From: Patescibacteria group bacterium
GTDB taxonomy: Bacteria; Patescibacteriota; Patescibacteriia; UBA1558; GWA2-36-10
Assembly (NCBI GenBank): GCA_041650755.1
Contig: JBAZKN010000001.1
Span: 4,387 to 68,386 of the forward strand
Reading direction: 5' to 3'
DNA length: 64,000 bases
Shown here: positions 7,358 to 43,857 of the stretch, piece by piece
Layout of the letters: every line of letters begins with the position of its first letter
How positions within the stretch are numbered: the first letter of the stretch is position 1
Notes under the pieces: model-generated
The model's input: the letters and a program-made list of their open reading frames with translations, nothing else
What the model was told of the DNA's origin: nothing
Databases searched by the model: none
Program-made: the position numbers and the translations under genes

Positions 7358-7360
7358 TAA

Positions 7361-29204: not shown

Positions 29205-29280
29205 GCCGTCTTAGCTCAGTTGGTAGAGCAACGCCATGGTAAGGCGTAGGTCCGCGGTTCAAGCCCGCGAGACGGCTCCA
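29205..29280 (+). tRNA. tRNA-Thr (anticodon GGU); integration target of island
   Basis: 76 nt; acceptor GCCGTCT/AGACGGC, anticodon loop ATGGTAA, T-arm CGCGGTTCAAGCCCGCG, CCA; 3' 46 nt duplicated at 43514-43559. Confidence 0.9.
29235..29280 (+). repeat. attL: 46-bp direct repeat (tRNA-Thr 3' portion)
   Basis: CATGGTAAGGCGTAGGTCCGCGGTTCAAGCCCGCGAGACGGCTCCA identical to 43514-43559. Confidence 0.85.
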
Positions 29281-29309
29281 TAAATACTGCAACTAATGTT
29301 GGAGTATTT

Positions 29310-30206
29310 TTGTTTATGAAAATCAGTCTACTTTTACAAGAGTTTTGTGATTATTCCCAGTATATTAGGGGATACGCGACTACTACAATAGGCCGTTATA
29401 GGAGAGTAGTATTGTTGTTTTGTAAATACGCCGGCATAGAAGACATAGAGGAGATAAATGAAAGTAATGTCAGGAACTTCTTTTTTAATGGTCGTACAGC
29501 CAAAAGTTGGTCTTCTAACACCTTTGTTTGCTATCACAAGACACTGGTGGTGTTTTTTCGTTGGTGCGTAAAGGAGGGGCATATGGTGGCTAATTTGGCC
29601 CAAGACGTAGAAACTCCCAGAATAGAGAAGAGATTGCCTCCCAAACTCACAAAACAGCAGGCGCTTAGGCTTCTAGAGGTCGTATATAATTATCCTTATC
29701 AATACAAGTTTTTGCATTTTAGAAACCATGCTATTTTTGCCACCTTTTTATTTACCGGTATCAGAAGAAAAGAACTATTAAACTTGAAATATACTGACAT
29801 TGATCTTGAGAATCTGACGCTTTATGTAAGGCAGGGCAAGGGCAGTAAGGACAGGATTGTGCCACTAAATTATAAACTAGCTTCAATACTCCAGAAATAC
29901 AACCAGGAACGCTCTAGACTCAATAAGACATGTCCAGAGTTTTTTACTTCCCTAAACCGTAATATGGGGTTTAAGCAGATCGGTTTAAGGCGTTTGGTTG
30001 AGCAAGTTAGAAAGGTTTCTGGTATTAGTTTTAACGTCCATCGCCTAAGACATACTTTTGCTACCCTAATGTTAGAAGGTGGCTGTGATATTTATAGTTT
30101 ATCAAGGATAATGGGCCATAGCGACATTAAAACAACAACTATATATTTGGCGGCTAGTGGGGAGCATTTGAGACAACAAATAATAAAGAATCCTCTCGAA
30201 ATTTGA
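29310..30206 (+). CDS. int: Tyrosine-type site-specific integrase (XerC/D family)
   Basis: C-terminal catalytic RxxR...HRLRHTFA...LMGHSDIKTTTIY pattern (R-H-R-Y). Confidence 0.9.
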   Translation: MFMKISLLLQEFCDYSQYIRGYATTTIGRYRRVVLLFCKYAGIEDIEEINESNVRNFFFNGRTAKSWSSNTFVCYHKTLVVFFRWCVKEGHMVANLAQDVETPRIEKRLPPKLTKQQALRLLEVVYNYPYQYKFLHFRNHAIFATFLFTGIRRKELLNLKYTDIDLENLTLYVRQGKGSKDRIVPLNYKLASILQKYNQERSRLNKTCPEFFTSLNRNMGFKQIGLRRLVEQVRKVSGISFNVHRLRHTFATLMLEGGCDIYSLSRIMGHSDIKTTTIYLAASGEHLRQQIIKNPLEI

Positions 30207-30267: not shown

Positions 30268-30909
30268 ATGGCAGTACCAATACCTCCACCAGATACATCT
30301 CAAACAACTTCCCTTATTGAGATACTAAAGCAGTTGGTTGGTTTAATTTTGGGATTATTGGGTGGAATTACTATTGAATCTACGTTGCATATCAGTCAAA
30401 AAATTATAAATAAAAATAGAATTAATTCGAAATCTAAAACAGGAGACCATAGTCCAGTAACGAATGTAGGCGTAACCGGGAATGATAATCAAGTTACTGT
30501 GAACACTAACAATGGTTTAGATAACAATGATCAAATAGATCAGGAAAAACTTTTTATCGGGAATGAAATAGATAAAATACTTATTTATAGAAAAATTAAC
30601 TTATTTTTTAGTCCTTGGTATAGGCAGGCTTACGTACAGTTAAATAAACATCTAGTATGTGCATCTGCTGCAGAATTTGCTAGGGCATTTTCAATAATCA
30701 AAGGGATATTTCTTGATCAGAATACTTATGACGGAGTTTTTGATCAAGAGGCACTTTCAATGATGGAGCACTCTTTTAATGAAATTGATAAATTCGTAAT
30801 TGATCAATCTAGTGACGAAAAACTGCTGTGTGGCATTATTAAAAATTTTGAAGCCGCTTTTTTTAGGTTAAAGAAGAATATAAATTATGAACCAGATAGA
30901 GTTACATAA
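30268..30909 (+). CDS. Hypothetical protein with N-terminal TM segment
   Basis: 213 aa; TM LIEILKQLVGLILGLLGGITI; end overlaps next ORF start. Confidence 0.55.
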   Translation: MAVPIPPPDTSQTTSLIEILKQLVGLILGLLGGITIESTLHISQKIINKNRINSKSKTGDHSPVTNVGVTGNDNQVTVNTNNGLDNNDQIDQEKLFIGNEIDKILIYRKINLFFSPWYRQAYVQLNKHLVCASAAEFARAFSIIKGIFLDQNTYDGVFDQEALSMMEHSFNEIDKFVIDQSSDEKLLCGIIKNFEAAFFRLKKNINYEPDRVT

Positions 30910-33868
30910 TAAAATATTAAAGATTTTAGCGGGTAATATTGGGGAAACAGATGCTGATGAGATTAAAAGCATAATTTCAACCAACGATGATGCTAGAAGA
31001 TATTTTTTCAGTAAGGCCGATGAAAAATGGCTTGTTTGGTTGTGGCAAAATGGGTTCATGGATGCCATTAAAGAAAAAATAAAAGATTCTTCATCGTATG
31101 CATATGCTAGCTCAGAACTAAATTATTTAGTAAAGGTAGCTGAAAAAGTTCCTGACGAAACAGCAAAAATTATATTGGAAGTGCCTGTTGAAGAAGGCTT
31201 TAACTCGGAAGTGGTAGATAGATTTTTATGGATTTGTAGTACAATGCCTGCACCGCAGCTTTCTAGGATAGTGCCAAAAATTCTAAATGAAAATTGGGTG
31301 ATTTTGATGAGCAGATTTAGAGATTGGGGGTTTGAATACGATAAAATGTTTCAGATCCTCGAAGGTGCTAAAGATTATGAAAGTATATTATTATTGGCCG
31401 AAGCTGTTCTATCAGTTAAGTCTCAAGAGGAATATCAAAGAGATGGTGTTTCGAGAGAGAGTCCATTTTATATAGAAAAATTATTCTACACAAAAGTTTT
31501 TGAACATCTTGTCAAATTACCAGTTAGCCATATAGAAAGAGCTTTGTCTTTAATAAATAAAACGATATTAAAAATTTCACTTATTAATTCGGAAGATAGT
31601 AGTAGCACTTTTTCAATTATTGATACTTTTTCTTATGGTATAGATTTTTTTTCTTTGAATCTTGGGGAGAATAAGCATGATCGATTTGGTGGAGATGTTC
31701 AAAATTTAATCGCTGCACTAAAACTGTTTTTAGAACGTTTCGTAAAAGATTGTATCAACAAAAGTGAAATTGAAAGGATTTATAATGAGTATATTTTTAC
31801 TTTACCTTCTTGTGAAGCAATGTGGCGTTTTCGATTATTCGCGCTTAATTTATCTTCTGAAATCTTCCAGAATAGTATAAAAGAGGAACTATTTTCTCTT
31901 TTCAATGGGAATCCATATGATAAATTGATTATTGAGTATCAAAAGTTATTAGGCTTGAATTTTTCCAATATGGCAGAAGTTGACAAGCGTAGTTACGTCG
32001 CTCAAGTTTTCGAATTTTTCGGAGCAAAAGTGGCAGATAAGAAAGAGCTTAAGTGGAATAAACAACGCGGATTAGAACTTTTGTCAAATATTTGTCGATA
32101 CTTAACTGATGAAGAGCTTTCAAAATGTGAAGATGTATTTGAAAAACAATGTATTCTTGACTATAAACCCGAGCCACTATTTCGCAAATTTTTCGCTGGA
32201 ACCGTAACTCCGATAGGTCCAATTAGCGCCGAAGAATTCACAAAATTTTCTATAAAAGAGATTGCGGAGAATTTGCGAAATAATTGGAGTCCGAAAAATT
32301 TATATAATAAATATAAAAATGATGATTTCCTAAAACCACGTAATGCTGAAGGAGTAGGTGAAATCTTAAAAAGTGATATATCTAAAAGATTGCAAGATTA
32401 TGTCTCAAATGCGGATTTATTTTTTGATCCTCAGTCTTTAGCGCCGCATTATTCTTATTCATTCTTTAGAGGTATTGAAACGGCAATAAAGGATAATATA
32501 GATACTGCAAAAAAAGTAGACTGGAGTATTTTAATTTCATTTTTAATTCGTATAAGAGGATTAGGTCAAGAAAATTTATCGAATGACGAAAAAGAAGAGA
32601 GAGAAGAATTTGATTCATGGTTAGCTGGATGGGATTCGGTGCATTCAGCTATAGTGGATGTTATACAGATTTTGATTGGTGAAGGAGAGGAAAAACATAT
32701 CATAAATTTTCCTAAGTATAGAGAGAAATTAATTCAGATTATAAGTTATTTACTTGAATATAAAGATCCAGTGCCCTCTGACGAAAATATTGAGACTGCC
32801 AAAATGAAAACTAGTGGAAGAGGCTCCAAAGATTACTTTGTAAGCGATCCATATTCGATGGCCATAAATACTGTTCGTGGAAGAGCATTTCAAGCACTTG
32901 TACTTTTTGTATATAGAGACGGCAAAGAGATAAGTAAAGATATAAAAAAAGAATACGAAACTGTTTTGAAAGACGAAAATACTCGCGCATTAATGTTTAT
33001 GTTCGGGAGATTTTTGCCATCCTTTTATCTAAGAGATAAACAATGGATTAAGGGTTTGTTGGAATTTATTTTTCCAATTGACCCAAGCAAGAATAATCTA
33101 TATTTGGCAGCATGGGAAGGCTATTTGACTGGCCCATTGTATGAACAAATTTTTGGAGATGAAGATTTTCAAAAACTATATTATAGAGGTTTGAGTGCAA
33201 ATAGTGGTCAGGATACTCATAGAAAATACGTGAAAGCGCCGGAAGAAGGGATAGCCGATCATTTGGCATTGGCATTCATGCATTATGAAAAGTTTGGATT
33301 TAGGAACAACTTATTTCGTGAATTTTGGAAAAGGCAGAACACCCGACGTGATGAATTCATCAGGTATTTGGGCAGCTTGTATATATCTGGTAGTAATGAT
33401 AATGCTGATAAACTACTAATTAAAAATCCTTTAGCTAAAAAAAGACTTGAAAAAATATGGGATTATGTACTTCAAAACTTTGAAGATCCAAAATTGTTTG
33501 AAAATTTTGGTTTTTGGATGAACATTGAAAAGAATGTGTTTGATGAAAAGTGGCTGGCAAAAAATATTGCAAAGACTCTAGAGAAGTCAAAAGGATCAAT
33601 TACGTGGGATTATGGGTTAACAAAATCTATAACTAGGTTAGCAGAGATTGCTCCAGAAGATTCACTTTTAATAACAAGATATTTCTTCTTTGAAGGAATG
33701 AAAGAAGAAAAGCGTAGGCCATTTTATTTAGATGATGAATGGATACAAACGTTCAAAATTTTATATAAAAATCCGATTACAAAACAGGGTACATACAAAC
33801 TTATAGATGACCTTATTCGTGAAGGTGGTAGCGTTTTTTGGAAGTTAGAAGATTTATTCAATTTATAA
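30887..33868 (+). CDS. Large hypothetical protein (993 aa), predicted all-alpha, no recognisable catalytic motif
   Basis: Long uninterrupted ORF, no Walker or nuclease motifs seen by eye; island cargo. Confidence 0.7.
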   Translation: MNQIELHNKILKILAGNIGETDADEIKSIISTNDDARRYFFSKADEKWLVWLWQNGFMDAIKEKIKDSSSYAYASSELNYLVKVAEKVPDETAKIILEVPVEEGFNSEVVDRFLWICSTMPAPQLSRIVPKILNENWVILMSRFRDWGFEYDKMFQILEGAKDYESILLLAEAVLSVKSQEEYQRDGVSRESPFYIEKLFYTKVFEHLVKLPVSHIERALSLINKTILKISLINSEDSSSTFSIIDTFSYGIDFFSLNLGENKHDRFGGDVQNLIAALKLFLERFVKDCINKSEIERIYNEYIFTLPSCEAMWRFRLFALNLSSEIFQNSIKEELFSLFNGNPYDKLIIEYQKLLGLNFSNMAEVDKRSYVAQVFEFFGAKVADKKELKWNKQRGLELLSNICRYLTDEELSKCEDVFEKQCILDYKPEPLFRKFFAGTVTPIGPISAEEFTKFSIKEIAENLRNNWSPKNLYNKYKNDDFLKPRNAEGVGEILKSDISKRLQDYVSNADLFFDPQSLAPHYSYSFFRGIETAIKDNIDTAKKVDWSILISFLIRIRGLGQENLSNDEKEEREEFDSWLAGWDSVHSAIVDVIQILIGEGEEKHIINFPKYREKLIQIISYLLEYKDPVPSDENIETAKMKTSGRGSKDYFVSDPYSMAINTVRGRAFQALVLFVYRDGKEISKDIKKEYETVLKDENTRALMFMFGRFLPSFYLRDKQWIKGLLEFIFPIDPSKNNLYLAAWEGYLTGPLYEQIFGDEDFQKLYYRGLSANSGQDTHRKYVKAPEEGIADHLALAFMHYEKFGFRNNLFREFWKRQNTRRDEFIRYLGSLYISGSNDNADKLLIKNPLAKKRLEKIWDYVLQNFEDPKLFENFGFWMNIEKNVFDEKWLAKNIAKTLEKSKGSITWDYGLTKSITRLAEIAPEDSLLITRYFFFEGMKEEKRRPFYLDDEWIQTFKILYKNPITKQGTYKLIDDLIREGGSVFWKLEDLFNL

Positions 33869-33912
33869 GATTATTATACGAAAGATAACTTGCATATTCT
33901 TTTATTTGTAAT

Positions 33913-34476
33913 ATGGTTGCCGCCAAAATTAAAGATCTAGCTAAAAAATTATTGGCCGAAAAAGATTTTGAAAATATCTTAAAGTTGATAGAAGATTTTA
34001 ATCAGCCACAATGTAGAAGAAGAGCCAGAGATGAATTAATGGCATTTGTTGGCGTCGTGCCAAAGAGACCATTGTATTATGTCGTCGCCAATATTATTCA
34101 TCTGCCTGATTTTGGAACTAGAGATATAATCCGTTATTTAGGAGATTATATTGACCAGATAGTTAGGTTTACCCTGGAAGAAAAAAATTTTTTGTCGAGA
34201 TGGTCGAAGAGGCCGCTCGGACCAAACATCATAAAATTAAAAAAATATATAGACAATGACCTTTATGAATGTTTGTGTTTATTTAATTTGATATATACGC
34301 AAGCAAAACATGACTTTAATCATTATAAAGACGAAAGCCTATTTGATTACAAGGACGCAATTTATGTGATATTTATTACTAAGCGATTAGCAAATAGATT
34401 ACTGCCCCTCTCTGAAAAAGCGAGAGATTATAATAATAGTGGTAAAACTCTTTATAAATACGATCCAGTGGAATAA
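33913..34476 (+). CDS. Hypothetical protein (187 aa)
   Basis: ORF with terminator-like hairpin downstream (AAATCGCCTAAATGGGCGATTT + T-run). Confidence 0.55.
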   Translation: MVAAKIKDLAKKLLAEKDFENILKLIEDFNQPQCRRRARDELMAFVGVVPKRPLYYVVANIIHLPDFGTRDIIRYLGDYIDQIVRFTLEEKNFLSRWSKRPLGPNIIKLKKYIDNDLYECLCLFNLIYTQAKHDFNHYKDESLFDYKDAIYVIFITKRLANRLLPLSEKARDYNNSGKTLYKYDPVE

Positions 34477-34665
34477 AATAAATCGCCTAAATGGGCGATT
34501 TTTGGTTTTTATAATTTTCAGGATTATTCCGCATATCTATTTCAAGAAGTAGTTGAAAAAAATTGATGAACTGAGTTCCTTGGCTGTATGCTTCCTCGCG
34601 ACTGATTTCTTTTCCGTGTACTTCTTTATAAATTTTTTGATATTCACTTATACTATCTTTGGGAA

Positions 34666-35112
34666 TCATTTCCCAATGTATTCTTTTATTGCCTGTTTAT
34701 AACCATCTCGCATATTTAAGCCATCTATTTCATCTATTGATACCCATCTATATTCCGAGTATTCATTATTTTCCATAATTTTATTTTCGTGTGAAATGCA
34801 GATATAAATTTTAACAGTAAATTGATACTGTGTTGCATTTACTTCTGAAGAAAAATTCCATGGTTCCAAAGCTGTCTTGATTTCAAAATTTTCCCAGCCT
34901 AGCTCTTCTTTGAGCTCTCTTTTCAGTGTTTTTTCTGGAGTCTCATCGTTCTCCATACGTCCACCGGGCATCTCCCAGACGCCCTTATGATCCTTCACTA
35001 AAAGGATTTTTTTATCCTCCTCAAATAGTGCTTTTACTGTGGTTTTTTCTATTTTTTTAGTCAAATTCATACATTGACATAGTAAACGTTTTCTGGTATT
35101 TTGTAAAGTCAA
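34666..35112 (-). CDS. NUDIX hydrolase
   Basis: Nudix box PGGRMENDETPEKTLKRELKEELGW (GGx5Ex7REuxEExGu); track start is TTG at 35112, alternative ATG at 35070. Confidence 0.85.
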   Translation of the reverse strand: MTLQNTRKRLLCQCMNLTKKIEKTTVKALFEEDKKILLVKDHKGVWEMPGGRMENDETPEKTLKRELKEELGWENFEIKTALEPWNFSSEVNATQYQFTVKIYICISHENKIMENNEYSEYRWVSIDEIDGLNMRDGYKQAIKEYIGK

Positions 35113-35151: not shown

Positions 35152-35958
35152 ATGAGGATCAAATATAGTGATCCGCAGGTCCAGTACGGGACTGCCCGTA
35201 ATCTACTCAACAGAGAGCTTGCTTGGGATAAATACGGCGTCGGCGCTGGTAAATATGGCATAGACTTCATCAACTTCGAGGGAAATGAGCTGGTACTTGA
35301 TGCCGGTTCAGGAACTGGAAGGGACGTTGCCATAATTAGCCAACGGCTGAACAAAGGCGGAAAAGTCTTTGCCGTAGACATCTCGCAAGCACTGTTGAGT
35401 ATCACCTGTCAGAGGGCTTGTAACACAATCACCACACCCCTGTGCGCTATTGCGTCAATTGAGAGTCTGCCTTTCGGCGATGGTCAATTTGATGTAGTAG
35501 TCGCCAAGCACGTCCTTAACCATGTCGATGATCTTGAGCGTGGAATGAGAGAAACACAGCGAGTAGTGAAGAGGAGGGGAAAAGTAGTAGTCACGACTGG
35601 CGTTAAGACGCCCGATGACGATCTGCTGAGAGTGTGCCACCAAGAAGCAATATCGCGTGTTGGCATCGAAACCACTGTGCGTCTTTCTCGTTCTCCTTTC
35701 CATTGTGGAAACGCTAGAGAGTACCTCAGTAGTCTCTTCGGAGACGTGAGATATCACTTCTACGGTTTCCAGATGGCGTTCCCTGACGTGGGTAGCTTCA
35801 TGTTGTATTACACGACACTGCCAAGCTTTCAGGAGTCCACCAGCGATCCGGCAACAAAATCTACTCTGGCGGCAGAAATGAGAAGCTTACTGGCCAGTAG
35901 AGAAATGCCGATCGTCTTGGATCGGTCACGCGGAACTTTCGTCTGCACCAAAATCTAG
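35152..35958 (+). CDS. Class I SAM-dependent methyltransferase
   Basis: Motif I VLDAGSGTGRD, acidic loop, motif LPFGDGQFDVVVAKHVLNHV; GC-rich; AAGGAG SD. Confidence 0.85.
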   Translation: MRIKYSDPQVQYGTARNLLNRELAWDKYGVGAGKYGIDFINFEGNELVLDAGSGTGRDVAIISQRLNKGGKVFAVDISQALLSITCQRACNTITTPLCAIASIESLPFGDGQFDVVVAKHVLNHVDDLERGMRETQRVVKRRGKVVVTTGVKTPDDDLLRVCHQEAISRVGIETTVRLSRSPFHCGNAREYLSSLFGDVRYHFYGFQMAFPDVGSFMLYYTTLPSFQESTSDPATKSTLAAEMRSLLASREMPIVLDRSRGTFVCTKI

Positions 35959-35970
35959 GAGGAGAGAGCG

Positions 35971-37053
35971 ATGTCAGTAAGAATCGGCATCGTCGGTGCA
36001 GGCGTGATGCTCAAGTACCAAGTAAACGGATTCCGTTTAGCTGGTGCTGAGATAACCTGCATTGCCGATCCAGACCAAGCTGCTGCCCAAAAGGCGGCTA
36101 CTCAGTGGGAGATTCCTCGGACCTTCACCTCTCTTGAGACAATGTTAGAGTCAGCATCTTCGGATGTTGACGCTATCAGCGTTCTCACGCCGCCGGTGTG
36201 CCACATGAACCTTGCAATCCAAGCTCTTCGAGCTGGAAAGCACGTGTTTTGCGAAAAGCCGCCGGCCATGAACGCTGGGCAGGTTCGAGAGATGGCAGAG
36301 GTAGCTCAGGCTTCAGGTCTTCATCTTCTGTTTGATTTCAACAATAGAGCGCGACCGGAAGCAGAGGAGATCATCCGACGTATTAACGAGGGATTCTTCG
36401 GGCGAATCAACTCCGCTCAAGCCGTTTGGGTTCGTAGATCAGGTATTCCGGCTTTCGGAAGCTGGTTTACAATCCGGGAGAAAGCTGGGGGCGGTGCGTT
36501 GATTGATCTGATGCACATGCTCGATTTGGCTCTGTACTTCATGGGTTACCCCAAGCCGAAACACGTGTTGGGTCAAACTTTTAATGACTTCATGGACGAC
36601 CCTTCACGCCGGGGAACCTACGGAGTAGCCAAGAGAGACGGTGCTGCAGATGTTGAGTCGAGTGCTCACGCCTTCATCACCTTCCAAACCGGACAAGTTC
36701 TTACAGTCCACACTTCATGGGCTGAGATGGTCCGAGAAGAGCAGTGCTTCGTAGTTCTCCAAGGTCAGAAACTCGGAGCTAAGGTTTCAAGGCTGTTTCA
36801 AAGCAATACCTGTGATAGCATCACCGGTACTTGCGAGCTGTACTCTCAGGAGTCAGGACAGCCGAGAAACCAAGGCATTACGGTGCCTTTCGACGGTTCA
36901 ATGGGACGCGTAGCTGCTGCAAGCAACTTCGTGGAAACTCTGCAAAGACAGGCTGAACCGCTGACTACTCCCTTTGAAGCCTGCAGGCTGATGAGCATCG
37001 TCGATGCCATCTATATGTCGGCTAAAAAGGGGGGGCCGGTGGAACTCGACTGA
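35971..37053 (+). CDS. Gfo/Idh/MocA-family NAD(P)-dependent sugar oxidoreductase
   Basis: N-terminal Rossmann IGIVGAGVM, conserved EKP motif (FCEKPPAMN); GGAGG SD. Confidence 0.9.
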   Translation: MSVRIGIVGAGVMLKYQVNGFRLAGAEITCIADPDQAAAQKAATQWEIPRTFTSLETMLESASSDVDAISVLTPPVCHMNLAIQALRAGKHVFCEKPPAMNAGQVREMAEVAQASGLHLLFDFNNRARPEAEEIIRRINEGFFGRINSAQAVWVRRSGIPAFGSWFTIREKAGGGALIDLMHMLDLALYFMGYPKPKHVLGQTFNDFMDDPSRRGTYGVAKRDGAADVESSAHAFITFQTGQVLTVHTSWAEMVREEQCFVVLQGQKLGAKVSRLFQSNTCDSITGTCELYSQESGQPRNQGITVPFDGSMGRVAAASNFVETLQRQAEPLTTPFEACRLMSIVDAIYMSAKKGGPVELD

Positions 37054-37073
37054 AAAGTCGGAAAGGAACTACG

Positions 37074-38249
37074 ATGTTTCGACGCATCATTATCTTAGTG
37101 ATGGATAGCGTCGGCATCGGCGCTCAGCCTGACGCAGCAGACTACAAGAGCGTTGGCGCTAATACCTTCCATCACGCAGCTGAAGCACACCAGGATTTCA
37201 GGGTTCCCAACCTTGAGAAACTGGGTTTCGGTAACATCGTCGGAGTAAGTTGTATCCCGACCGTTCATCGACCTCTTGCGCACTTCGGGCGCATGATGGA
37301 AACGACGTCGGGAAATGACACCTTCGCCGGCATCTGGGAAATGGCAGGCGTTACTTTTACAGAACGATTCGCATCGTTCTACCCCAAGATGTCGCTTGAC
37401 TTGGTGCAGCAAATGCAACAGGCCATAGGCACCCTTACGCTCTGTAACGCCTACATCTCTGGTTTCAAGGTGTTTGACGAATACGCCGACCAACACTTCG
37501 CAACAGGTCAGCCTATTGTCTACACCTGTGACGATGGGGTGGTCTTAGTAGCAGCTCACGAAGGTGTTGTTCCACCAGCTAGGCTACATGAGATTGCCCG
37601 GAAGATGTCTCGTTTCTTTATCGGGAAGAACGTCACGAGAATCATCGCCCGAGCTTTTATCGGTGAAAAGGATAACTTCGTCCGCACCGAGAATCGGGCC
37701 GATATTATCGTGCCGCTTAATAAGAGTTGTGAACACCTATTCCAACGGATTCGAGAAGTCGGAATGCCTTTTACGGCTACTGAACACCTCGCTTCGGTGA
37801 TAGGCAGTGAGTTCGTCACCGAAGTAATACCTGGGATTATGGATTCGGCTGGTGTTATGGATTCTGTCCTGGAATACCTGAGAGTTGGTAAAGATGGCGT
37901 GGCTATGTTCGTTGTGCCAGACTTTGATATGTCTGGCCATGCTCGTAAACCCCGTCAATACGCTCTCGACCTTATGTACTTCGATCAGAGACTTGGCGAG
38001 GTTTTGCCGATGATCAACTGCGATGACCTTCTGTTGATTGTGGCTGATCATGGCTGTGATCCGGTTATAGCAATTCGGGGGCATACTCGAGAGTACGTGC
38101 CACTTCTAGTACTGGATGGCAACGGTGGTTCTAGCTCAGACCTGGGAACCAGGACGAGCTTTGCCGATCTAGGCCAGACTATCTGTGGTTTGATAGGAGC
38201 CAATCCCATTCCTCTTGGCGAAAGCTTCGCCGGCATCCTTAAGGAGTGA
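37074..38249 (+). CDS. Phosphopentomutase-like (DeoB family, alkaline-phosphatase superfamily) phosphosugar mutase
   Basis: N-terminal IILVMDSVGIGAQPDA...GANTFHH matches DeoB N-terminus (VLDSFGIGA...GADTLGH); 391 aa. Confidence 0.8.
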   Translation: MFRRIIILVMDSVGIGAQPDAADYKSVGANTFHHAAEAHQDFRVPNLEKLGFGNIVGVSCIPTVHRPLAHFGRMMETTSGNDTFAGIWEMAGVTFTERFASFYPKMSLDLVQQMQQAIGTLTLCNAYISGFKVFDEYADQHFATGQPIVYTCDDGVVLVAAHEGVVPPARLHEIARKMSRFFIGKNVTRIIARAFIGEKDNFVRTENRADIIVPLNKSCEHLFQRIREVGMPFTATEHLASVIGSEFVTEVIPGIMDSAGVMDSVLEYLRVGKDGVAMFVVPDFDMSGHARKPRQYALDLMYFDQRLGEVLPMINCDDLLLIVADHGCDPVIAIRGHTREYVPLLVLDGNGGSSSDLGTRTSFADLGQTICGLIGANPIPLGESFAGILKE

Positions 38250-38251
38250 TC

Positions 38252-39403
38252 ATGCACGAAGAACCTTTGCTGGCAATAAACGGTGGAAAAGCCGTTTATC
38301 CAGGAAGCCTCAAACGAGGTCGGGTCTTCGGTGAAGAAGAGCGGCAGGCCGTCTGGGAGGTAATGGGAAAGGGCGTAGTCTCAAAAGCTGGCATGGGTGA
38401 AATGGTGCAACGGTTTGAATGGGAATTCGCCGCTTATCACCAGATGCCCTACGCCATAGCGACCACGTCCGGTACCAGTGCCCTTCACACGGCTGTCGAC
38501 GCTTTGCAGATAGGCCCGGGAGACGAAGTCATTGTCCCTGACTTGACCTTCGTTTCCACAGCTTCAGTAGCTTTACAAGCGGGAGCGAAAGTCGTCTTCT
38601 GTGACATTGACCTCGACACCTTCAACCTGTCCGTGACTGATCTCAAAGCGAAGATAACCCCCCGTACCAAAGCAGTGATCGTGGTACATCTGTACGGCAG
38701 ACCCGCCGATATGGACCAGATCCTGCAACTGACAACAAAACACGGTATTCGTCTGATCGAAGACTGTGCTCAGGCCCATGGAGCCACCATCTGCGGGCAA
38801 CTCGTAGGAACGTTCGGTGACTTGGCTTGCTACAGCTTCTATCAGACGAAGAACATGAGCTGTGGAGAAGGGGGAATGGTCATTACCGCTAATGAGGAGC
38901 TGGCTCAAAGATGCAGGTCTTTGACCCGACACGGACTTATCGGCGATGACTTGGGTGTCTACAACTACGATAAGCTTGGCTACAACTACGCAATGACTGA
39001 GCTTCAGGCGGCAATTGGTATTGTGCAGTTGCGTAAACTCGCAACTCTCAACCATTACCGTCGTCAGAATGCCAAGCTCTACCGTGAAGGGTTGGACACT
39101 CTCCCGTTGCACTTCCAGGAAGACGCGGATGGTCACGTGGACCACTGCTTGACTGCAGTTCTTCCAGCTGAACTATCGCGTGAATGGTTTCTTAAGGCTG
39201 TGAGAGCTGAAGGGGCAATGGTCAACTGCCTTTATCCGTTAGCATTGTCGAGAACAGCGATATTTGTCGGCTCCAATCAGCCTACAGTATCGCATCGAGT
39301 CGCGACGTCACTGTTCAACCTTTACACCAACCCTGACGTGTCCTACGCCTTCGTAGAAGTGTGTTGCACAGCCATACGCAAGGTGTTGGGCTACGGGAGG
39401 TGA
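38252..39403 (+). CDS. DegT/DnrJ/EryC1/StrS-family PLP-dependent sugar aminotransferase
   Basis: TSGTSALH, DEVIVPDLTFVST, PLP-lysine context SFYQTKNMSCGEGGMV; start codon overlaps upstream stop (AGGAGTGATCATG). Confidence 0.9.
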   Translation: MHEEPLLAINGGKAVYPGSLKRGRVFGEEERQAVWEVMGKGVVSKAGMGEMVQRFEWEFAAYHQMPYAIATTSGTSALHTAVDALQIGPGDEVIVPDLTFVSTASVALQAGAKVVFCDIDLDTFNLSVTDLKAKITPRTKAVIVVHLYGRPADMDQILQLTTKHGIRLIEDCAQAHGATICGQLVGTFGDLACYSFYQTKNMSCGEGGMVITANEELAQRCRSLTRHGLIGDDLGVYNYDKLGYNYAMTELQAAIGIVQLRKLATLNHYRRQNAKLYREGLDTLPLHFQEDADGHVDHCLTAVLPAELSREWFLKAVRAEGAMVNCLYPLALSRTAIFVGSNQPTVSHRVATSLFNLYTNPDVSYAFVEVCCTAIRKVLGYGR

Positions 39404-39406
39404 GTC

Positions 39407-40321
39407 ATGAAGCACTTGTCCTATGTTGAGGCTGCTGATATGGCACACCTCTTGGCCCTCAAACAAGAGCGTCAGATCACGATCAGTTTAGCTCTCCCCG
39501 TCAGAAACGAGGAGGCGACCATTGGTCGTGTCATCGAGTGTGCCAGATCGTGCCAGCCGTTAGTTGACGAGATTATCGTCTTGGACAGCGGTTCTACCGA
39601 CAACACGCGGGAGGTGTGTTCAAGGTTAGGACTGGATGCGATCCCTGACGAACAGTTGGCCAAGGCCATGTCTATCCCTCTAGCCAGAGGAAAAGGATGG
39701 AATCTGTGGAGCAGTGTCTACTTCACGCGCGGTGATGTCATCGCCTGGATTGACACTGACATAGAGAACATCCATCCGCGCTTCATCCAAGGAATCGTCG
39801 CTCCTTTCCTGATGGATCCCGAGGTGATCTTTGCCAAAGGTTACTACAAGCGACCCAAGGGTGATGCCCGGGTGACCGAGATTCTTGCTCGGCCTTTCCT
39901 CAACATGCTGTTTCCCGAAGCTGCGAGTTTCATACAACCGTTGGCGGGGGAATACGCTGGGACTCGCGAGTTCCTCGAGAAAGCCACTTTCTACTCCGGG
40001 TATAGTGTAGAGGTGGCTATTCTGCTCCAAGCAGTACTTGAGTATGGACCGGAGAGAATCACCCAAGTGTTCCTCGACCAGCGGGTACATCCGCTTCAAG
40101 ATGTCCCGTCGCTTGGCAGGATGGCAGGTAGCATCCTGTACACTCTCCTGCATCTAGCTGAGCACTACAAGCGATTGACGCTTCAAGTGGATGTTCAGCA
40201 GGAAATGAGGGTGTTCAACGCCACCATCGATGGCGACAAGAACATCACCTCGGAAACGCTCAACGTCGCAGACACCGCTCTTCCTCGTGTGGTTGACCTT
40301 CCCAACTACCGGGAGAGGTAG
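39407..40321 (+). CDS. Family 2 glycosyltransferase (glucosyl-3-phosphoglycerate synthase-like)
   Basis: ISLALPVRNEE...EIIVLDSGSTDNT and DTD motif; GGAGGTGAGTCATG coupling to upstream gene. Confidence 0.85.
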   Translation: MKHLSYVEAADMAHLLALKQERQITISLALPVRNEEATIGRVIECARSCQPLVDEIIVLDSGSTDNTREVCSRLGLDAIPDEQLAKAMSIPLARGKGWNLWSSVYFTRGDVIAWIDTDIENIHPRFIQGIVAPFLMDPEVIFAKGYYKRPKGDARVTEILARPFLNMLFPEAASFIQPLAGEYAGTREFLEKATFYSGYSVEVAILLQAVLEYGPERITQVFLDQRVHPLQDVPSLGRMAGSILYTLLHLAEHYKRLTLQVDVQQEMRVFNATIDGDKNITSETLNVADTALPRVVDLPNYRER

Positions 40322-40336
40322 TCTGCACAGACAAAA

Positions 40337-40385
40337 GGGCCCGATGAACGAACATAACATTCTGACATCCGGGCCCTTTGAATTT
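40337..40385 (+). terminator. Rho-independent terminator ending GC-rich operon
   Basis: GGGCCCG-loop-CGGGCCC followed by TTTGAATTT. Confidence 0.7.
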
Positions 40386-41170: not shown

Positions 41171-41411
41171 AAATTTGAATTAATGATACAAAAAAGGCCT
41201 CGCGCCAGTTGGCAACCCCTTGCGGTGTTACCACTACGCCCTTTCAGGCATAGACCTATCCTACAAGTACCGGTCACGAGACCATCTCTGTGTAGGATAG
41301 GTATTTGAAGCCATGCTCCAAAAATGGAGTTTAGGCCTTTTAATTGTAAGTTGAGTTTATCAAAAAAGAGCTATTTATTCAAGCTGGCGACTTGTTTATC
41401 AATAATATAAG

Positions 41412-42071: not shown

Positions 42072-42386
42072 TAAAATACGATCCGTAAGTGGGCCGTATA
42101 GAGCTGTTTTATAGTTAAAGTGATTATACTTTAACTTTTTTGTTTTTGTTGGAGTTCTATTAAAAACGTCCTAATAACAGGGGGTGAAGTACTAAAAATA
42201 AAAAATCTTAGTATTAATACCCCCACTACATATTAGTGTTTTTGTAAAAGTTGAAAATAAAACGGTATTAAGCAGAGGGAGTGATGCCTTGCACTCAATT
42301 TATTGTTCATTTGATACAAATTTAACAGGGTGCGACATGTAAGATATATAGGTTTTAATAGGCGAAAACGTATTTTATGGCTCAAA

Positions 42387-43373
42387 ATGCCAAAATACAA
42401 AAAGTACGTAAATGACACAAATTATATGGTTGAAATTAAGGAAATAATAAGCAAATTTATGGATCAGAAGGAATTTGCTGAAGATCGCTCAAAAGCCACG
42501 ATAGATAATTATCATTGGGTTTTTAAGCATTTATTACAATTAATGCCTGAAATCAAAGTCTTGAATGACATTAATCATGACAATGTGGTCGAATTTTTGA
42601 AAAGAGTCAGTACTAGAGAGAAAACCGTGGGCCATGAAAAGGTAGTGGGTATAAGCACCAGTACTAAAAGGACTTATATTAGTAAATTAAATACTTTCTG
42701 CGTGTGGTTGAATAGGAATGGTTATAAAAGAGATAATCCTATGGATAAGGAGAGTATGCCGCGCCCAAAGATTATATATAAAAATAGGAAATACTTGGAT
42801 TTAGATCAGGTAAGAAGGATATTGGTAGCCATTAGTCATAATATACGTTGGAGCAGTAATTTTATTAAAGCCAGAAATGAATTGATAATAGTTTTGGCCA
42901 TTACTTGTGGTTTGAGAAGATCTGAGTTATTAGGCATAACTTTGTCAGACATAGATTTAGATAATCGTAAAATTACTATTAGAGGGGTGACATCAAAGAG
43001 TAAAAAAACTAGATTTTTACACATTAATGCTTGGTGTATGGATATATTAAAAAAGTATCTATTGGAGAGGCGTAATAAACATTATAAAAATCCACATTTG
43101 TTTGTTTCTGATATGGTTGATAGGCCCTTTACGACACATGGGTTAAAGCACATGTTGAAAAAGGTAGAGAATACCTCTGGCATTGATTTTCACATGCACA
43201 ATTTCAGGCACACGTTTGCCTATATTTTGAAAAAAAACAACACAAACACTTCTTCGATACAGAATTTGTTGGGGCACAGTGCCGTGCAACATACTCAAAA
43301 ATATCTAGAAAATTTTCCAGATGACGAAAATGATAAATATATTGATCAAGTCACCCTTCAAAATCTTAAATAA
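42387..43373 (+). CDS. int: Tyrosine-type site-specific integrase (second copy)
   Basis: C-terminal HNFRHTFAYIL...LLGHSAVQHTQKY (R-H-R-Y catalytic pattern); start taken at MPKYKKY, track start 42330. Confidence 0.85.
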   Translation: MPKYKKYVNDTNYMVEIKEIISKFMDQKEFAEDRSKATIDNYHWVFKHLLQLMPEIKVLNDINHDNVVEFLKRVSTREKTVGHEKVVGISTSTKRTYISKLNTFCVWLNRNGYKRDNPMDKESMPRPKIIYKNRKYLDLDQVRRILVAISHNIRWSSNFIKARNELIIVLAITCGLRRSELLGITLSDIDLDNRKITIRGVTSKSKKTRFLHINAWCMDILKKYLLERRNKHYKNPHLFVSDMVDRPFTTHGLKHMLKKVENTSGIDFHMHNFRHTFAYILKKNNTNTSSIQNLLGHSAVQHTQKYLENFPDDENDKYIDQVTLQNLK

Positions 43374-43513: not shown

Positions 43514-43559
43514 CATGGTAAGGCGTAGGTCCGCGGTTCAAGCCCGCGAGACGGCTCCA
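43514..43559 (+). repeat. attR: 46-bp direct repeat of tRNA-Thr(GGU) 3' end
   Basis: Identical to 29235-29280. Confidence 0.85.
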
Positions 43560-43857
43560 TTCGACTCCATCCCGCTTTGCGTGACTTCGCTCGTGGTCTA
43601 CGTTCTCGGCTTTGCCTTGAACTCCGACCACCATAAAGAGGCGAGTGTCACGAGTGAATTAAGCGCATCGAGGGGCACGAGATAAAATAATAAGTGGAAT
43701 AAAAATCAGCACTGTTAGCTGGTTTTTTAATATTTATCCCCAAGTTTGCGGGTGTTTTTTTATTTTTTTATGATGACTATGGTATAATATAATATATAAA
43801 AGTTGATTGCTTGACAATTTTTTGTAATTATACTATAATATAAAATTAAGATTAATT

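What the first reader, a model, noticed from the sequence alone, without database searches (positions are those of the whole stretch)
35152..40385. Compositionally foreign five-gene operon (methyltransferase, Gfo/Idh/MocA dehydrogenase, phosphopentomutase-like, DegT aminotransferase, GT2) next to a Nudix hydrolase: candidate amino-sugar/aminonucleoside modification system
Seen in sequence:
- Five + strand genes are packed with overlapping or 3-20 nt junctions (TGA/ATG overlap at 38247-38254; GGAGGTGAGTCATG at 39391-39409).
- Each has a strong GGAGG/AAGGAG Shine-Dalgarno.
- GC content rises sharply above the AT-rich flanks, beginning at ~35110 where the divergent AT-rich Nudix gene starts.
- The operon ends at a GGGCCCG/CGGGCCC terminator at 40337-40385.
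- The whole block lies inside a tRNA-integrated island.

Established knowledge: a Gfo/Idh/MocA sugar dehydrogenase plus a DegT/DnrJ/EryC1 aminotransferase is the canonical two-step route to 3-amino (keto then amino) sugars. Examples are NtdC/NtdA for kanosamine and WbpB/WbpE. The same pair plus a Nudix pyrophosphatase (Pur10/Pur4/Pur7) and methyltransferases builds 3'-amino-3'-deoxyadenosine in puromycin-type pathways. DeoB-family mutases interconvert pentose 1- and 5-phosphates. GT2/GpgS-like enzymes transfer NDP-sugars.

Inference: the cassette makes a methylated amino-pentose or amino-hexose (phosphate/nucleotide) and attaches it to an acceptor. Candidates are a cell-surface glycoconjugate, a compatible solute or an aminonucleoside-type metabolite. 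It was acquired horizontally from a high-GC donor into a reduced-genome host.
Basis: partly seen in the sequence, partly recalled or inferred. Interest (0 to 1): 0.85.

Follow-up and report, generated by a model that had tools for sequence, protein, structure and literature searches.

The report
Mobile amino-sugar gene cassette in Patescibacteria
A GC-rich five-gene operon and its partner Nudix gene sit on a 14.3-kb element integrated at a tRNA-Thr gene of a Patescibacteria genome, and the same uncharacterised cassette recurs in other ultra-small bacteria, where it probably makes an aminated, methylated sugar compound whose identity is unknown.

Summary
Five tightly packed + strand genes at 35152-40321 have 50-54% GC. 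The immediate flanks have 32% and the window 41%. All five named protein families are confirmed with intact catalytic motifs. A perfect 47-nt direct repeat (tRNA-Thr 3' end = 43514-43560) bounds a 14,279-bp island with two tyrosine recombinases.

The Nudix gene belongs to the system. A core of Nudix, a variant phosphopentomutase ("DeoB*"), a DegT aminotransferase and a GpgS-like glycosyltransferase recurs in about 25 loci, mostly labelled Patescibacteria. It comes in two gene orders, always with different flanks and often beside tRNA genes. The methyltransferase and the Gfo oxidoreductase are optional.

- DeoB* keeps the catalytic machinery but has a remodelled sugar pocket, and every such enzyme seen in context lies in this cassette.
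- The glycosyltransferase is 44% identical to a structurally solved mycobacterial GpgS homologue.
- The Gfo resembles glycoside 3-oxidoreductases (DgpA) and has its nearest non-CPR relatives in Verrucomicrobiota.

The product is unknown. My best guess (about 0.35) is an aminated, N-methylated glycosyl-(phospho)glycerate. The main rival (about 0.25) is a puromycin/ADG-like 3'-aminonucleoside route. I found no description in the literature available to me. This is a new variant of known chemistry, of moderate interest.

The parts
29205..29281 (+). tRNA-Thr(GGT). Its 3' 47 nt (29235-29281) form the left copy of the island's direct repeat (attL).
   Evidence: ARAGORN and Rfam; repeat D1 at 100% identity
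29310..30206 (+). Tyrosine recombinase/integrase at the left end of the island
   Evidence: Phage_integrase Pfam on record; PHROG integrase, 1.7e-50
30268..34669 (.). AT-rich island cargo of unknown function (213, 993, 187 and 60 aa). It is not conserved with the cassette elsewhere.
   Evidence: No Pfam, PADLOC or PHROG hit; absent from other cassette loci
34666..35112 (-). MutT-like Nudix hydrolase, transcribed divergently from the operon. It is a conserved member of the cassette. Gene callers start it at the ATG at 35070 (134 aa).
   Evidence: NUDIX, 4e-19; intact Nudix box at residues 51-72; present next to the cassette in all loci with intact 5' flanks; GC 0.33
35152..35958 (+). Class I SAM methyltransferase (accessory). 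Its nearest solved relatives include amine N-methyltransferases.
   Evidence: Methyltransf_11, 3e-19; PDB phosphoethanolamine and PE N-methyltransferases at weak E-values; present in only some cassettes
35971..37053 (+). Gfo/Idh/MocA NAD oxidoreductase (accessory), similar to the DgpA glycoside 3-oxidoreductase
   Evidence: Pfam N and C domains; PDB 9m3d DgpA1 at 1.6e-46 against about 1e-17 for the next class; EKP and GGGALxDxxH motifs; non-CPR relatives at 52-55% identity
37074..38249 (+). DeoB*, a phosphopentomutase-family enzyme. All metal ligands and the Thr nucleophile are kept, but the substrate pocket is remodelled.
   Evidence: NF003766 scores 308 bits against a cutoff of 256; TIGR01696 scores 281 against a cutoff of 341; PDB PPM at 3e-68; residue comparison
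38252..39403 (+). DegT/DnrJ/EryC1 PLP aminotransferase (catalytic Lys present)
   Evidence: PF01041, 6e-104; SFYQTK(202) and GEGG motifs; PDB hits; start codon
39407..40321 (+). GpgS-like (GT81-type) soluble GT-A glycosyltransferase
   Evidence: NF010496 scores 255.5 bits against a cutoff of 262; PDB GpgS/MpgS at 1e-43, with 43.7% identity over 231 aa; DTD and RVTE motifs
40334..40379 (+). Stable GC-rich hairpin after the last gene (terminator-like)
   Evidence: -22.3 kcal/mol, z = -4.4; not called by the consensus scan
42330..43373 (+). Second tyrosine recombinase, at the right end of the island
   Evidence: Phage_integrase; PHROG integrase, 1.7e-44
43514..43560 (+). Right copy of the 47-nt direct repeat (attR)
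   Evidence: 100% identical to 29235-29281; spacing 14,279 nt

Best explanation
The operon and the divergent Nudix gene form one mobile, self-contained metabolic cassette that circulates among Patescibacteria. Here it is carried on a 14.3-kb element integrated into tRNA-Thr.

Most likely it builds a small soluble amino-sugar conjugate on a glycerate-type acceptor, by these steps:
1. The GpgS-like transferase couples an NDP-hexose from the cell's pool to 3-phosphoglycerate or a close carboxylate analogue.
2. The DgpA-like Gfo enzyme oxidises the sugar's 3-hydroxyl.
3. DegT transaminates the ketone to a 3-amino sugar.
4. DeoB*, a phosphopentomutase relative, moves or removes the phosphate of the aminated intermediate. 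Its sugar pocket has gained two acidic residues.
5. The methyltransferase methylates the new amine.
6. The MutT-like Nudix hydrolyses a nucleotide by-product or a toxic nucleotide-linked intermediate.

Shown: the gene families, the intact catalytic motifs, the conserved co-occurrence and the mobility.

Inferred: the substrates, the order of steps, the product and the role of the Nudix.
For: Cassette and mobility:
- The core set recurs in two gene orders. Type A is Nudix<-|->[MT][Gfo]-DeoB*-DegT-GT. Type B is DegT-Gfo-DeoB*-GT-[DUF3419]-Nudix-unk25x. Identities are 38-90%, and the flanks differ in every locus.
- All 20 pocket-variant DeoB genes seen with context lie in the cassette. GT relatives at 43% identity or less have none of the partners.
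- The window copy is bounded by att repeats. In L088, imperfect direct repeats beside tRNA-Asn enclose exactly Nudix plus the operon. tRNA genes lie within 0.5 kb in four other loci.

Glycosyltransferase:
- It is 43.7% identical to a structurally solved mycobacterial GpgS homologue (M. avium paratuberculosis, PDB 3ckj) and scores 255.5 against the equivalog cutoff of 262.
- It keeps the DxD motif and the RVTE motif. In M. tuberculosis GpgS, the Val backbone N and the Thr side chain of that motif bind the 3-PGA carboxylate (PMC2581804).
- In L005 it is replaced by another mannosylglycerate-synthase-like GT2.

Gfo: its best solved relative is DgpA, a glycoside 3-oxidoreductase, at 1.6e-46.

DeoB*:
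- It retains D13, T85, D286, H291, D327, H328, H339, R193, R197 and R208.
- It changes S154C, A155D, S157G, G239E and K240H. Ser154 is a ribose-5-phosphate contact in the B. cereus enzyme (PMC11641776).

Methyltransferase: its nearest solved relatives include phosphoethanolamine and phosphatidylethanolamine N-methyltransferases.

No membrane glycosyltransferase, flippase or NDP-sugar synthase lies in any cassette.
Against: - Four of nine type A cassettes have no Gfo or other dehydrogenase nearby, yet DegT needs a carbonyl substrate.
- A Nudix has no known role in glucosylglycerate or kanosamine-type pathways. It is a hallmark of aminonucleoside clusters.
- DeoB* passes one phosphopentomutase equivalog model and keeps the distal arginines, which fits a pentose-phosphate mutase better than a GpgP-like phosphatase.
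- The GT falls just below the GpgS cutoff. Arg261, which contacts the UDP phosphates in GpgS, is Gln here.
- Nothing has been tested biochemically.
Confidence: 0.35

Rival explanations
1. A 3'-amino-3'-deoxynucleoside or nucleotide pathway related to puromycin and ADG. The steps would be:
1. Gfo (Pur10/AdgB-like) oxidises the 3'-OH of an NTP, or of ribose-5-phosphate.
2. DegT (Pur4/AdgC-like) aminates it.
3. The Nudix (Pur7/AdgD-like) converts the toxic 3'-amino-NTP to the NMP.
4. DeoB* handles 3-amino-3-deoxyribose phosphates, shifting 5-P to 1-P for base attachment by a nucleoside phosphorylase, or it replaces the Pur3 monophosphatase.
5. The methyltransferase N-methylates, as Pur5 does.

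The product would be a chain-terminating toxin or defence molecule.
For: - Gfo/Idh/MocA + DegT + Nudix (+ phosphatase) is exactly the proven minimal set for 3'-amino-3'-deoxyguanosine (adgB-E, shown by heterologous expression, PMC9239236). It is also the nucleoside core of the pur, ata and cst clusters (PMC11641026).
- The Nudix is small and MutT/NudI-like, that is, of the NTP-pyrophosphatase type, and it is universal in the cassette.
- DeoB* is a phosphopentomutase relative. New acidic residues sit next to the ribose contact Ser154, which could bind a sugar amine.
- The cassette sits on mobile elements.
Against: - A universal GpgS-like GT with its carboxylate-binding motif has no role in this scheme.
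- There is no Pur3-type monophosphatase, exporter or acetyltransferase.
- The type A Gfo resembles glycoside 3-oxidoreductases rather than known NTP dehydrogenases, although no Pur10 sequence was available for comparison.
- Gfo is missing from four cassettes.
- Orthology to Pur10, Pur4 and Pur7 was not testable here.
Confidence: 0.25
2. A sugar-phosphate or NDP-sugar route to an amino sugar, of the kanosamine type (NtdC/NtdA or RifL/RifK logic). The hexose-6-P or NDP-hexose is oxidised and aminated. DeoB* acts as a phospho-aminosugar mutase (6-P to 1-P). The Nudix cleaves the NDP-aminosugar to the sugar-1-P. The GT uses the activated amino sugar.
For: - The type B Gfo is most similar to UDP-GlcNAc 3-dehydrogenase and IolG models.
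- The DegT hits include AHBA synthase (RifK-type) and NtdA.
- The type B gene order DegT-Gfo-DeoB*-GT reads as a linear pathway.
- The acidic pocket changes in DeoB* fit an amino substrate.
Against: - No sugar-1-phosphate nucleotidylyltransferase is present in any cassette.
- The Nudix and the GT would compete for the same intermediate.
- The Gfo-less cassettes remain unexplained.
- DeoB-family enzymes are not known as hexose-phosphate mutases.
Confidence: 0.15
3. A salvage or catabolic module run in reverse. Amino-sugar or aminonucleoside material scavenged from the host is deaminated by DegT, reduced by Gfo and fed to central metabolism through DeoB*.
For: - Patescibacteria depend on scavenged nucleosides (established knowledge).
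- DeoB is a salvage enzyme.
- Aminotransferases and Gfo enzymes are reversible.
Against: - A retaining GpgS-like synthase and a SAM methyltransferase are anabolic.
- No transporter, kinase or nucleoside phosphorylase is conserved in the cassette.
Confidence: 0.08
4. A cell-surface glycan (LPS, capsule or S-layer) modification locus.
For: DegT, Gfo and GT2 families are common in such loci (established knowledge; NCBIfam hits to PseC, ArnB and WecE).
Against: - The GT is soluble and GT81/GpgS-like rather than membrane-bound or polyprenol-linked.
- There is no flippase, polymerase, ABC exporter, NDP-sugar synthase or dehydratase in any of about 25 loci.
- The cassette is found in unrelated contexts.
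Confidence: 0.05

Closest known systems
Glucosyl-3-phosphoglycerate synthase / phosphatase pathway (GpgS Rv1208 + GpgP Rv2419c of Mycobacterium; GT81)
   Same: - The GT is 43.7% identical to a solved mycobacterial GpgS homologue.
- It has the same DxD motif and the same RVTE carboxylate-binding motif.
- It scores within 7 bits of the NCBIfam equivalog cutoff.
- A second phosphoryl-transfer enzyme is encoded beside it.
   Different: - No HAD or histidine-phosphatase GpgP is present. A phosphopentomutase relative takes its place.
- The GT is always coupled to a DegT aminotransferase and a Nudix, and often to a Gfo oxidoreductase and a methyltransferase.
- The REHRNR loop reads RVHPLQ.
- Ordinary GpgS-like genes in metagenomes lack these partners.
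Aminonucleoside core of the puromycin / A201A / cystocin / ADG clusters (Pur10, Pur4, Pur7, Pur3; AdgB-E)
   Same: - The same three families occur together: a Gfo/Idh/MocA oxidoreductase, a DegT aminotransferase and a small Nudix.
- A methyltransferase is also present.
- The block is compositionally distinct.
   Different: - There is no Pur3 IMPase-type phosphatase, no exporter, no Pur6 and no acetyltransferase.
- Instead there are a phosphopentomutase relative and a GpgS-like GT, which those clusters lack.
- Gfo is optional here.
- Orthology was not tested.
Kanosamine / 3-amino-sugar routes (NtdC-NtdA-NtdB, RifL-RifK-RifM, WbpB-WbpE)
   Same: Oxidoreductase plus DegT-family aminotransferase logic for C3 amination (established knowledge; PDB hits to NtdA, WbpE and AHBA synthase).
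   Different: - Those pathways have no Nudix, no DeoB-family enzyme and no GpgS-like GT.
- The phosphatase types differ.
DgpA glycoside 3-oxidoreductase (C-/O-glycoside metabolism of gut bacteria)
   Same: It is the best solved relative of the window's Gfo over the full length, at 1.6e-46.
   Different: - DgpA works with DgpB/C lyases in catabolism.
- Here the partner is an aminotransferase.
- The substrate is untested.
Phosphopentomutase DeoB (Bacillus cereus PPM, alkaline-phosphatase superfamily)
   Same: - About 40% identity.
- All Mn ligands, the Thr85 nucleophile and Arg193/197/208 are kept.
- It passes NF003766.
   Different: - The pocket residues are changed in a clade-specific way: T86F, T87A, H89V/I, G126C, S154C, A155D, S157G, G239E, K240H, D243S and Y/F289S.
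- It fails the TIGR01696 cutoff.
- It is never found with deoD/deoC-type partners, only in this cassette.

Membership tests
tRNA-integrated genomic island | Direct repeat duplicating the tRNA 3' end at the far boundary | tested here: met
   47 nt, 100% identical, at 29235-29281 and 43514-43560
tRNA-integrated genomic island | Integrase adjacent to the att site, and composition unlike the host | tested here: met
   Tyrosine recombinases at 29310-30206 and 42330-43373. The island backbone has 32% GC and the operon 52%, against 41% for the window.
Phosphopentomutase (DeoB) | Catalytic core: two-metal ligands and Thr nucleophile | tested here: met
   D11, T83, D285, H289, D325, H326 and H337 are aligned to Bc D13, T85, D286, H291, D327, H328 and H339. 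They are invariant in 20 clade members.
Phosphopentomutase (DeoB) | Curated equivalog scores | tested here: inconclusive
   NF003766 scores 308 against a cutoff of 256 (pass). TIGR01696 scores 280.8 against a cutoff of 341.2 (fail).
Phosphopentomutase (DeoB) | Canonical substrate-pocket residues (Ser154, Gly239-Lys240, His89) | tested here: not met
   They read Cys, Glu-His and Val/Ile in all or nearly all clade members, against 82% S/GK/H in ordinary DeoB.
Glucosyl-3-phosphoglycerate synthase (GpgS, GT81) | Equivalog-level sequence score | tested here: inconclusive
   NF010496 scores 255.5 bits against a cutoff of 262. Identity to the solved mycobacterial GpgS homologue 3ckj (MAP2569c) is 43.7%.
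Glucosyl-3-phosphoglycerate synthase (GpgS, GT81) | DxD metal motif, His of the beta8-alpha9 loop, and the V-T carboxylate-binding pair | tested here: met
   DTD at 116-118, RVH at 226-228 and RVTE at 155-158. All are invariant in 10 cassette GTs.
Glucosyl-3-phosphoglycerate synthase (GpgS, GT81) | Activity: NDP-glucose + 3-PGA gives glucosyl-3-phosphoglycerate | not testable with these tools
   An enzyme assay is needed.
GpgS/GpgP glucosylglycerate pathway | Dedicated GpgP of the HAD or histidine-phosphatase type | tested here: not met
   No such gene occurs in the window island or in any cassette locus.
pur/adg aminonucleoside core | Co-located Gfo/Idh/MocA oxidoreductase, DegT aminotransferase and Nudix hydrolase | tested here: met
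   Met at family level in the window. Gfo is absent from 4 of 9 type A cassettes.
pur/adg aminonucleoside core | Orthology to Pur10/AdgB, Pur4/AdgC and Pur7/AdgD | not tested
   Reference sequences were not obtainable with these tools.
pur/adg aminonucleoside core | Pur3/AdgE-type monophosphatase and an exporter or resistance gene | tested here: not met
   None is present in the island. An Inositol_P-family gene lies beside one cassette only (L088).
Surface-polysaccharide (LPS/capsule) locus | Membrane or polyprenol-linked GTs, a flippase, polymerase or ABC exporter, and NDP-sugar synthases | tested here: not met
   Absent from all cassette loci.
Known anti-phage defence systems (PADLOC) | Match of the cassette proteins to a defined system | tested here: not met
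   There are only generic single-protein matches: the Nudix to candidate PDC-S07 and the MT to mad2.

The most novel reading that the evidence does not exclude
The cassette is a Patescibacteria-wide, horizontally mobile weapon or defence module. It would make a 3'-amino-3'-deoxy nucleoside or nucleotide, a polymerase chain terminator, by a previously unknown sugar-phosphate route: ribose-5-P is oxidised and aminated, the variant phosphopentomutase shifts it to the 1-phosphate, and a salvage nucleoside phosphorylase adds the base. The always-linked MutT-like Nudix would act as the producer's immunity enzyme, and the GpgS-like enzyme would mask or conjugate the product.
Probability: 0.12. Interest if true: 0.85.

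Novelty: new variant of a known kind. Interest (0 to 1): 0.55.

Why it matters
Patescibacteria have tiny genomes and are thought to have almost no biosynthetic capacity beyond the essentials. A multi-step small-molecule pathway that they keep, trade among themselves on integrative elements and maintain with intact active sites therefore probably matters for their epibiotic life, whether through stress protection, host interaction or warfare.

The cassette also defines a discrete phosphopentomutase subfamily with a remodelled, more acidic sugar pocket. That subfamily is found only with a GpgS-like transferase, a DegT aminotransferase and a Nudix, so it is a clean target for enzyme discovery.

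If the product is an aminoglycosyl-glycerate, it would be a new class of solute. If it is an aminonucleoside, it would be the first such antibiotic-type pathway in this radiation, and a new route to these compounds.

Tried and rejected
- **Genome-contig scan with the DeoB* alignment.** The back-translated patterns were shared with ordinary DeoB. Only 2 of 80 loci were clade members, so the scan was largely wasted. It did turn up the first type B loci (L008, L010).
- **L002.** This is a 14,292-bp contig from another sample and is identical to the island. I considered it as evidence for a circular excised form. I rejected that because its ends stop k-1 = 30 nt inside each repeat copy, which is a normal assembly break.
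- **E. coli YhfW/YhfS.** This is a DeoB-like mutase next to an aminotransferase, and I considered it a possible known analogue. I rejected it because YhfW keeps Gly-Lys at positions 239/240 and is only 25% identical.
- **Phage origin.** IMG/VR holds only ordinary GpgS-like GTs without the partner genes, and the island has no PHROG hits apart from the integrases.
- **Defence-system membership.** PADLOC gave only generic hits.
- **unk25x (type B only).** It has no Pfam, NCBIfam or PDB sequence match.
- **B. cereus PPM structural papers.** They were not held in the library, so only the secondary citation for the Ser154 and Arg193 contacts was usable.
- **Literature searches.** Searches combining Patescibacteria with GpgS, phosphopentomutase or DegT, and phosphopentomutase with Nudix, aminotransferase and GT, found no description of the cassette.
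- **Promoter scan.** The number of matches was not above chance.

Full report
**Observation**

The region contains five co-directional ORFs at 35152-35958, 35971-37053, 37074-38249, 38252-39403 (an alternative GTG start lies at 38246) and 39407-40321. They are separated by 12, 20, 2 and 3 nt. Four of them have AAGGAG or GGAGG at the right distance from the start codon. The third has a weaker AAAGGAA.

Gene GC is 0.50-0.54 and GC3 is 0.52-0.64. The genes on either side have GC 0.31-0.33, and the 64-kb window has 0.41. In 200-nt windows the composition switches within one step, at about 35100 and about 40380.

A hairpin at 40334-40379 follows the last stop codon. It has a free energy of -22.3 kcal/mol and z = -4.4 against shuffles. 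Its loop is long and its T-run poor, so the consensus terminator scan did not call it.

- Methyltransf_11.
- GFO_IDH_MocA, N and C domains.
- Metalloenzyme/phosphopentomutase. NF003766 scores 308 bits against a cutoff of 256.
- DegT_DnrJ_EryC1, at 348 bits.
- Glycos_transf_2. The best model is glucosyl-3-phosphoglycerate synthase, at 255.5 bits against a cutoff of 262.
- A NUDIX protein, divergently transcribed at 34666-35112.

The catalytic motifs are intact:
- MT: VLDAGSGTG.
- Gfo: EKP and GGGALxDxxH.
- DegT: SFYQTK(202), GEGG and DCAQA.
- GT: DTD, RVTE and RVH.
- Nudix: the Nudix box.

**The island**

A perfect 47-nt direct repeat links the 3' part of tRNA-Thr(GGT) (29235-29281) to 43514-43560, 14,279 nt away. 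Tyrosine recombinases lie just inside each end. The remaining cargo consists of AT-rich genes with no family match in Pfam, PADLOC or PHROGs, plus a LOOT RNA.

The host flanks carry ordinary Patescibacteria housekeeping genes: TIM, FBP aldolase, aminoacyl-tRNA synthetases, FtsEX, LexA and MurA. NCBI labels the source record 'Patescibacteria group bacterium'.

A contig from an independent sample is identical across the island. It breaks 30 nt inside each repeat, which is an assembly artefact and not evidence for a circular form.

**What the unit really is**

The phosphopentomutase-like protein belongs to a discrete clade of about 21 clusters at 54% identity or more, nearly all labelled Patescibacteria. 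Similarity then drops abruptly to about 41%. Gene contexts of clade members show a constant arrangement, which I call type A. A divergent Nudix is followed by DeoB*-DegT-GpgS-like GT, and the methyltransferase and/or the Gfo oxidoreductase are inserted between the Nudix and DeoB* in only some loci:
- Both MT and Gfo: the window, L003/L092 and L004.
- Gfo only: L086 and L088.
- MT only: L090.
- Neither: L005, L007 and L087.

The flanks differ every time. tRNA genes lie within 0.5 kb in L004 (Glu), L005 (Ser, with a recombinase), L086 (Gln) and L088 (Asn). In L088 an imperfect direct repeat of about 40 nt, starting at the tRNA-Asn 3' end, encloses exactly Nudix + Gfo + DeoB* + DegT + GT. The Nudix therefore belongs to the cassette, and the cassette moves as a unit.

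A second, more distant architecture, type B, appeared in further loci. Its gene order is DegT-Gfo-DeoB*-GT-[DUF3419 SAM enzyme]-Nudix-unk25x, all on one strand. Identity to the window proteins is 38-52%.

The type B Gfo belongs to a different Gfo/Idh/MocA subfamily. It is 24-25% identical to the type A Gfo and matches UDP-GlcNAc 3-dehydrogenase and IolG models best. The SAM enzyme is also a different family. So an oxidoreductase and a SAM enzyme have each been recruited in two non-orthologous forms. The Nudix, by contrast, is orthologous across both types (47-49% identity).

Metagenomic GT relatives at 43% identity or less, which are ordinary GpgS-like genes, have none of the partner genes. 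IMG/VR holds no copy of the cassette.

**Composition and origin**

Type A blocks are GC-richer than their flanks in all five type A loci profiled (0.445-0.514), except L005, where block and flanks match at about 0.46. Their Nudix gene is always AT-rich, at 0.31-0.37. Type B operons have the same composition as their AT-rich hosts.

The closest relatives of the core genes are other Patescibacteria. The type A Gfo, however, grades at 52-55% identity into a very large family from records labelled Verrucomicrobiota and Armatimonadota.

The 'high-GC donor' idea is thus plausible for the Gfo gene. For the core, the evidence points to circulation within Patescibacteria, which fits published surveys of gene transfer in this group (PMC12455944). 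I cannot explain the persistently AT-rich Nudix.

**Function: what is shown**

DeoB* retains every metal ligand, the Thr85 nucleophile and Arg193/197/208 of B. cereus PPM. It carries clade-specific pocket changes: T86F, T87A, H89V/I, G126C, S154C, A155D, S157G, G239E, K240H, D243S and Y/F289S. Type B enzymes share the F86/A87/V89/A154/D155/G157/E239/H240 signature. Ser154 is one of the ribose-5-phosphate contacts in the B. cereus enzyme (PMC11641776). All 20 signature-bearing DeoB genes seen with context lie in the cassette.

The GT is 43.7% identical over 231 residues to a structurally solved mycobacterial GpgS homologue (M. avium paratuberculosis, PDB 3ckj). It keeps the DxD motif, the loop His and the RVTE motif. 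In M. tuberculosis GpgS, the Val backbone N and the Thr side chain of that motif bind the carboxylate of 3-PGA (PMC2581804). Arg261, which contacts the UDP phosphates in GpgS, is Gln here. In L005 the GT is replaced by a different mannosylglycerate-synthase-like GT2.

The window's Gfo is far closer to DgpA glycoside 3-oxidoreductases (1.6e-46) than to any other solved class, the next being about 1e-17.

DegT is a bona fide aminotransferase with no clear subfamily. Its solved relatives include scyllo-inosose, Kdo8N, perosamine, QdtB, ArnB, WbpE, AHBA and NtdA enzymes, all at similar scores.

The Nudix is small and MutT/NudI-like. The nearest solved relatives of the MT include amine N-methyltransferases, at weak scores.

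**Function: inference**

Two readings each explain most of the parts, but neither explains all of them.

*Reading 1, preferred at about 0.35.* The GpgS-like enzyme makes a glycosyl-(3-phospho)glycerate. The Gfo enzyme oxidises the sugar C3 and DegT aminates it. DeoB* shifts or removes the phosphate of the aminated intermediate, and its new Asp and Glu residues would suit an ammonium group. The MT methylates the amine.
- This uses only in-cluster enzymes and pool metabolites.
- It fits the two most specific assignments, GpgS-like and DgpA-like.
- It leaves the Nudix without a clear role, and it does not explain the cassettes that lack Gfo.

*Reading 2, about 0.25.* This is the aminonucleoside logic. 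Gfo + DegT + Nudix (+ phosphatase) is the experimentally proven minimal set for 3'-amino-3'-deoxyguanosine in Photorhabdus (PMC9239236) and for the puromycin, A201A and cystocin nucleoside cores (PMC11641026).
- A pentose-phosphate mutase with an amine-friendly pocket fits naturally.
- The universal GpgS-like GT has no role in this scheme.
- No Pur3-type phosphatase, exporter or resistance gene is present.
- Orthology to the Pur proteins could not be tested.

Three further options are less likely: a kanosamine-type sugar-phosphate or NDP-sugar route, a reverse (salvage) direction, and a surface-glycan locus. The reasons are given under the rival explanations.

**Comparison and novelty**

Every protein belongs to a known family, and the chemistry (oxidise, transaminate, methylate, glycosyl transfer) is conventional. 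The combination is not. The cassette fails the defining features of:
- the GpgS/GpgP pathway, because it has no GpgP;
- the pur/adg core, because it has no Pur3 or exporter and has an extra GT and DeoB*;
- kanosamine pathways;
- surface-polysaccharide loci.

Full-text searches found no description of the cassette.

I classify it as a new variant of a known kind: an uncharacterised, mobile metabolic cassette, largely restricted to Patescibacteria, that contains a new phosphopentomutase subfamily. Two MAG labels differ from the rest (Gammaproteobacteria for L006 and Ignavibacteria for L010). These may be binning errors.

**Verdict**

The main corrections are these:
- The Nudix gene is part of the unit.
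- The MT and the Gfo are accessories.
- The donor pool is mainly other Patescibacteria.
- The cassette is recurrent, not unique to this genome.

Interest is moderate, at 0.55. The finding is real and testable and lies in an understudied group, but the product is unknown and the enzyme families are ordinary.

Noticed in passing
window 41211-41337 (-): A LOOT RNA (Rfam RF03000, 70 bits against a gathering score of 46.4) lies inside the island, between a 70-aa membrane-like ORF and a 219-aa unknown gene. It was not found in eight other cassette loci, so it belongs to this island's backbone rather than to the cassette.
   Followed up: partly
window 34666-35112; L003 7574-8014; L004 7652-8104; L005 9518-9898; L007 3023-3424: The cassette's Nudix gene is AT-rich (GC 0.31-0.37) in every type A locus, next to a block at 0.45-0.53 GC and whatever the flank GC. 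In type B operons the orthologous Nudix matches its neighbours. I have no explanation.
   Followed up: partly
L008 9480-10241; L097 8406-9164; L143 6048-6824; L144 12535-13305: A conserved protein of about 255 aa ends every type B operon. It has no Pfam, NCBIfam or PDB sequence match. By eye, its invariant K/R residues and its C-terminal EFS...FxDxD motif resemble an ATP-grasp or PPDK-N-like nucleotide-binding fold. This is unverified.
   Followed up: partly
L088 1222-1261 and 6808-6846: Imperfect direct repeats of about 40 nt, starting at the 3' end of tRNA-Asn, enclose exactly Nudix + Gfo + DeoB* + DegT + GT (5.6 kb) with no integrase inside. This looks like a minimal or decayed island.
   Followed up: yes
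window 30887-33868 (+): A 993-aa island protein, together with its 213-aa and 187-aa neighbours, has no match in Pfam, PADLOC or PHROGs. It is the largest cargo gene of the element.
   Followed up: no
window 49900-51372 (+): A second local GC spike (0.536 at 50001-51000) lies over a 490-aa ORF with no Pfam family on record.
   Followed up: no
L005 7857-8466: Several 18-nt exact duplications, two tRNA-Ser genes and a serine recombinase lie directly upstream of the cassette's Nudix. This suggests repeated integration events at tRNA-Ser.
   Followed up: no
L015, L022, L027, L030 and other Firmicutes loci, about 7000-7950: Canonical deoB genes of Clostridia and Bacillota are regularly preceded by a XerD-like tyrosine recombinase gene. 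This is a housekeeping neighbourhood unrelated to the island integrases here.
   Followed up: no
window 34666-35112 (-): The Nudix matches the PADLOC phage-defence candidate PDC-S07 over the full profile (1.2e-18). This may only reflect generic MutT-likeness.
   Followed up: no
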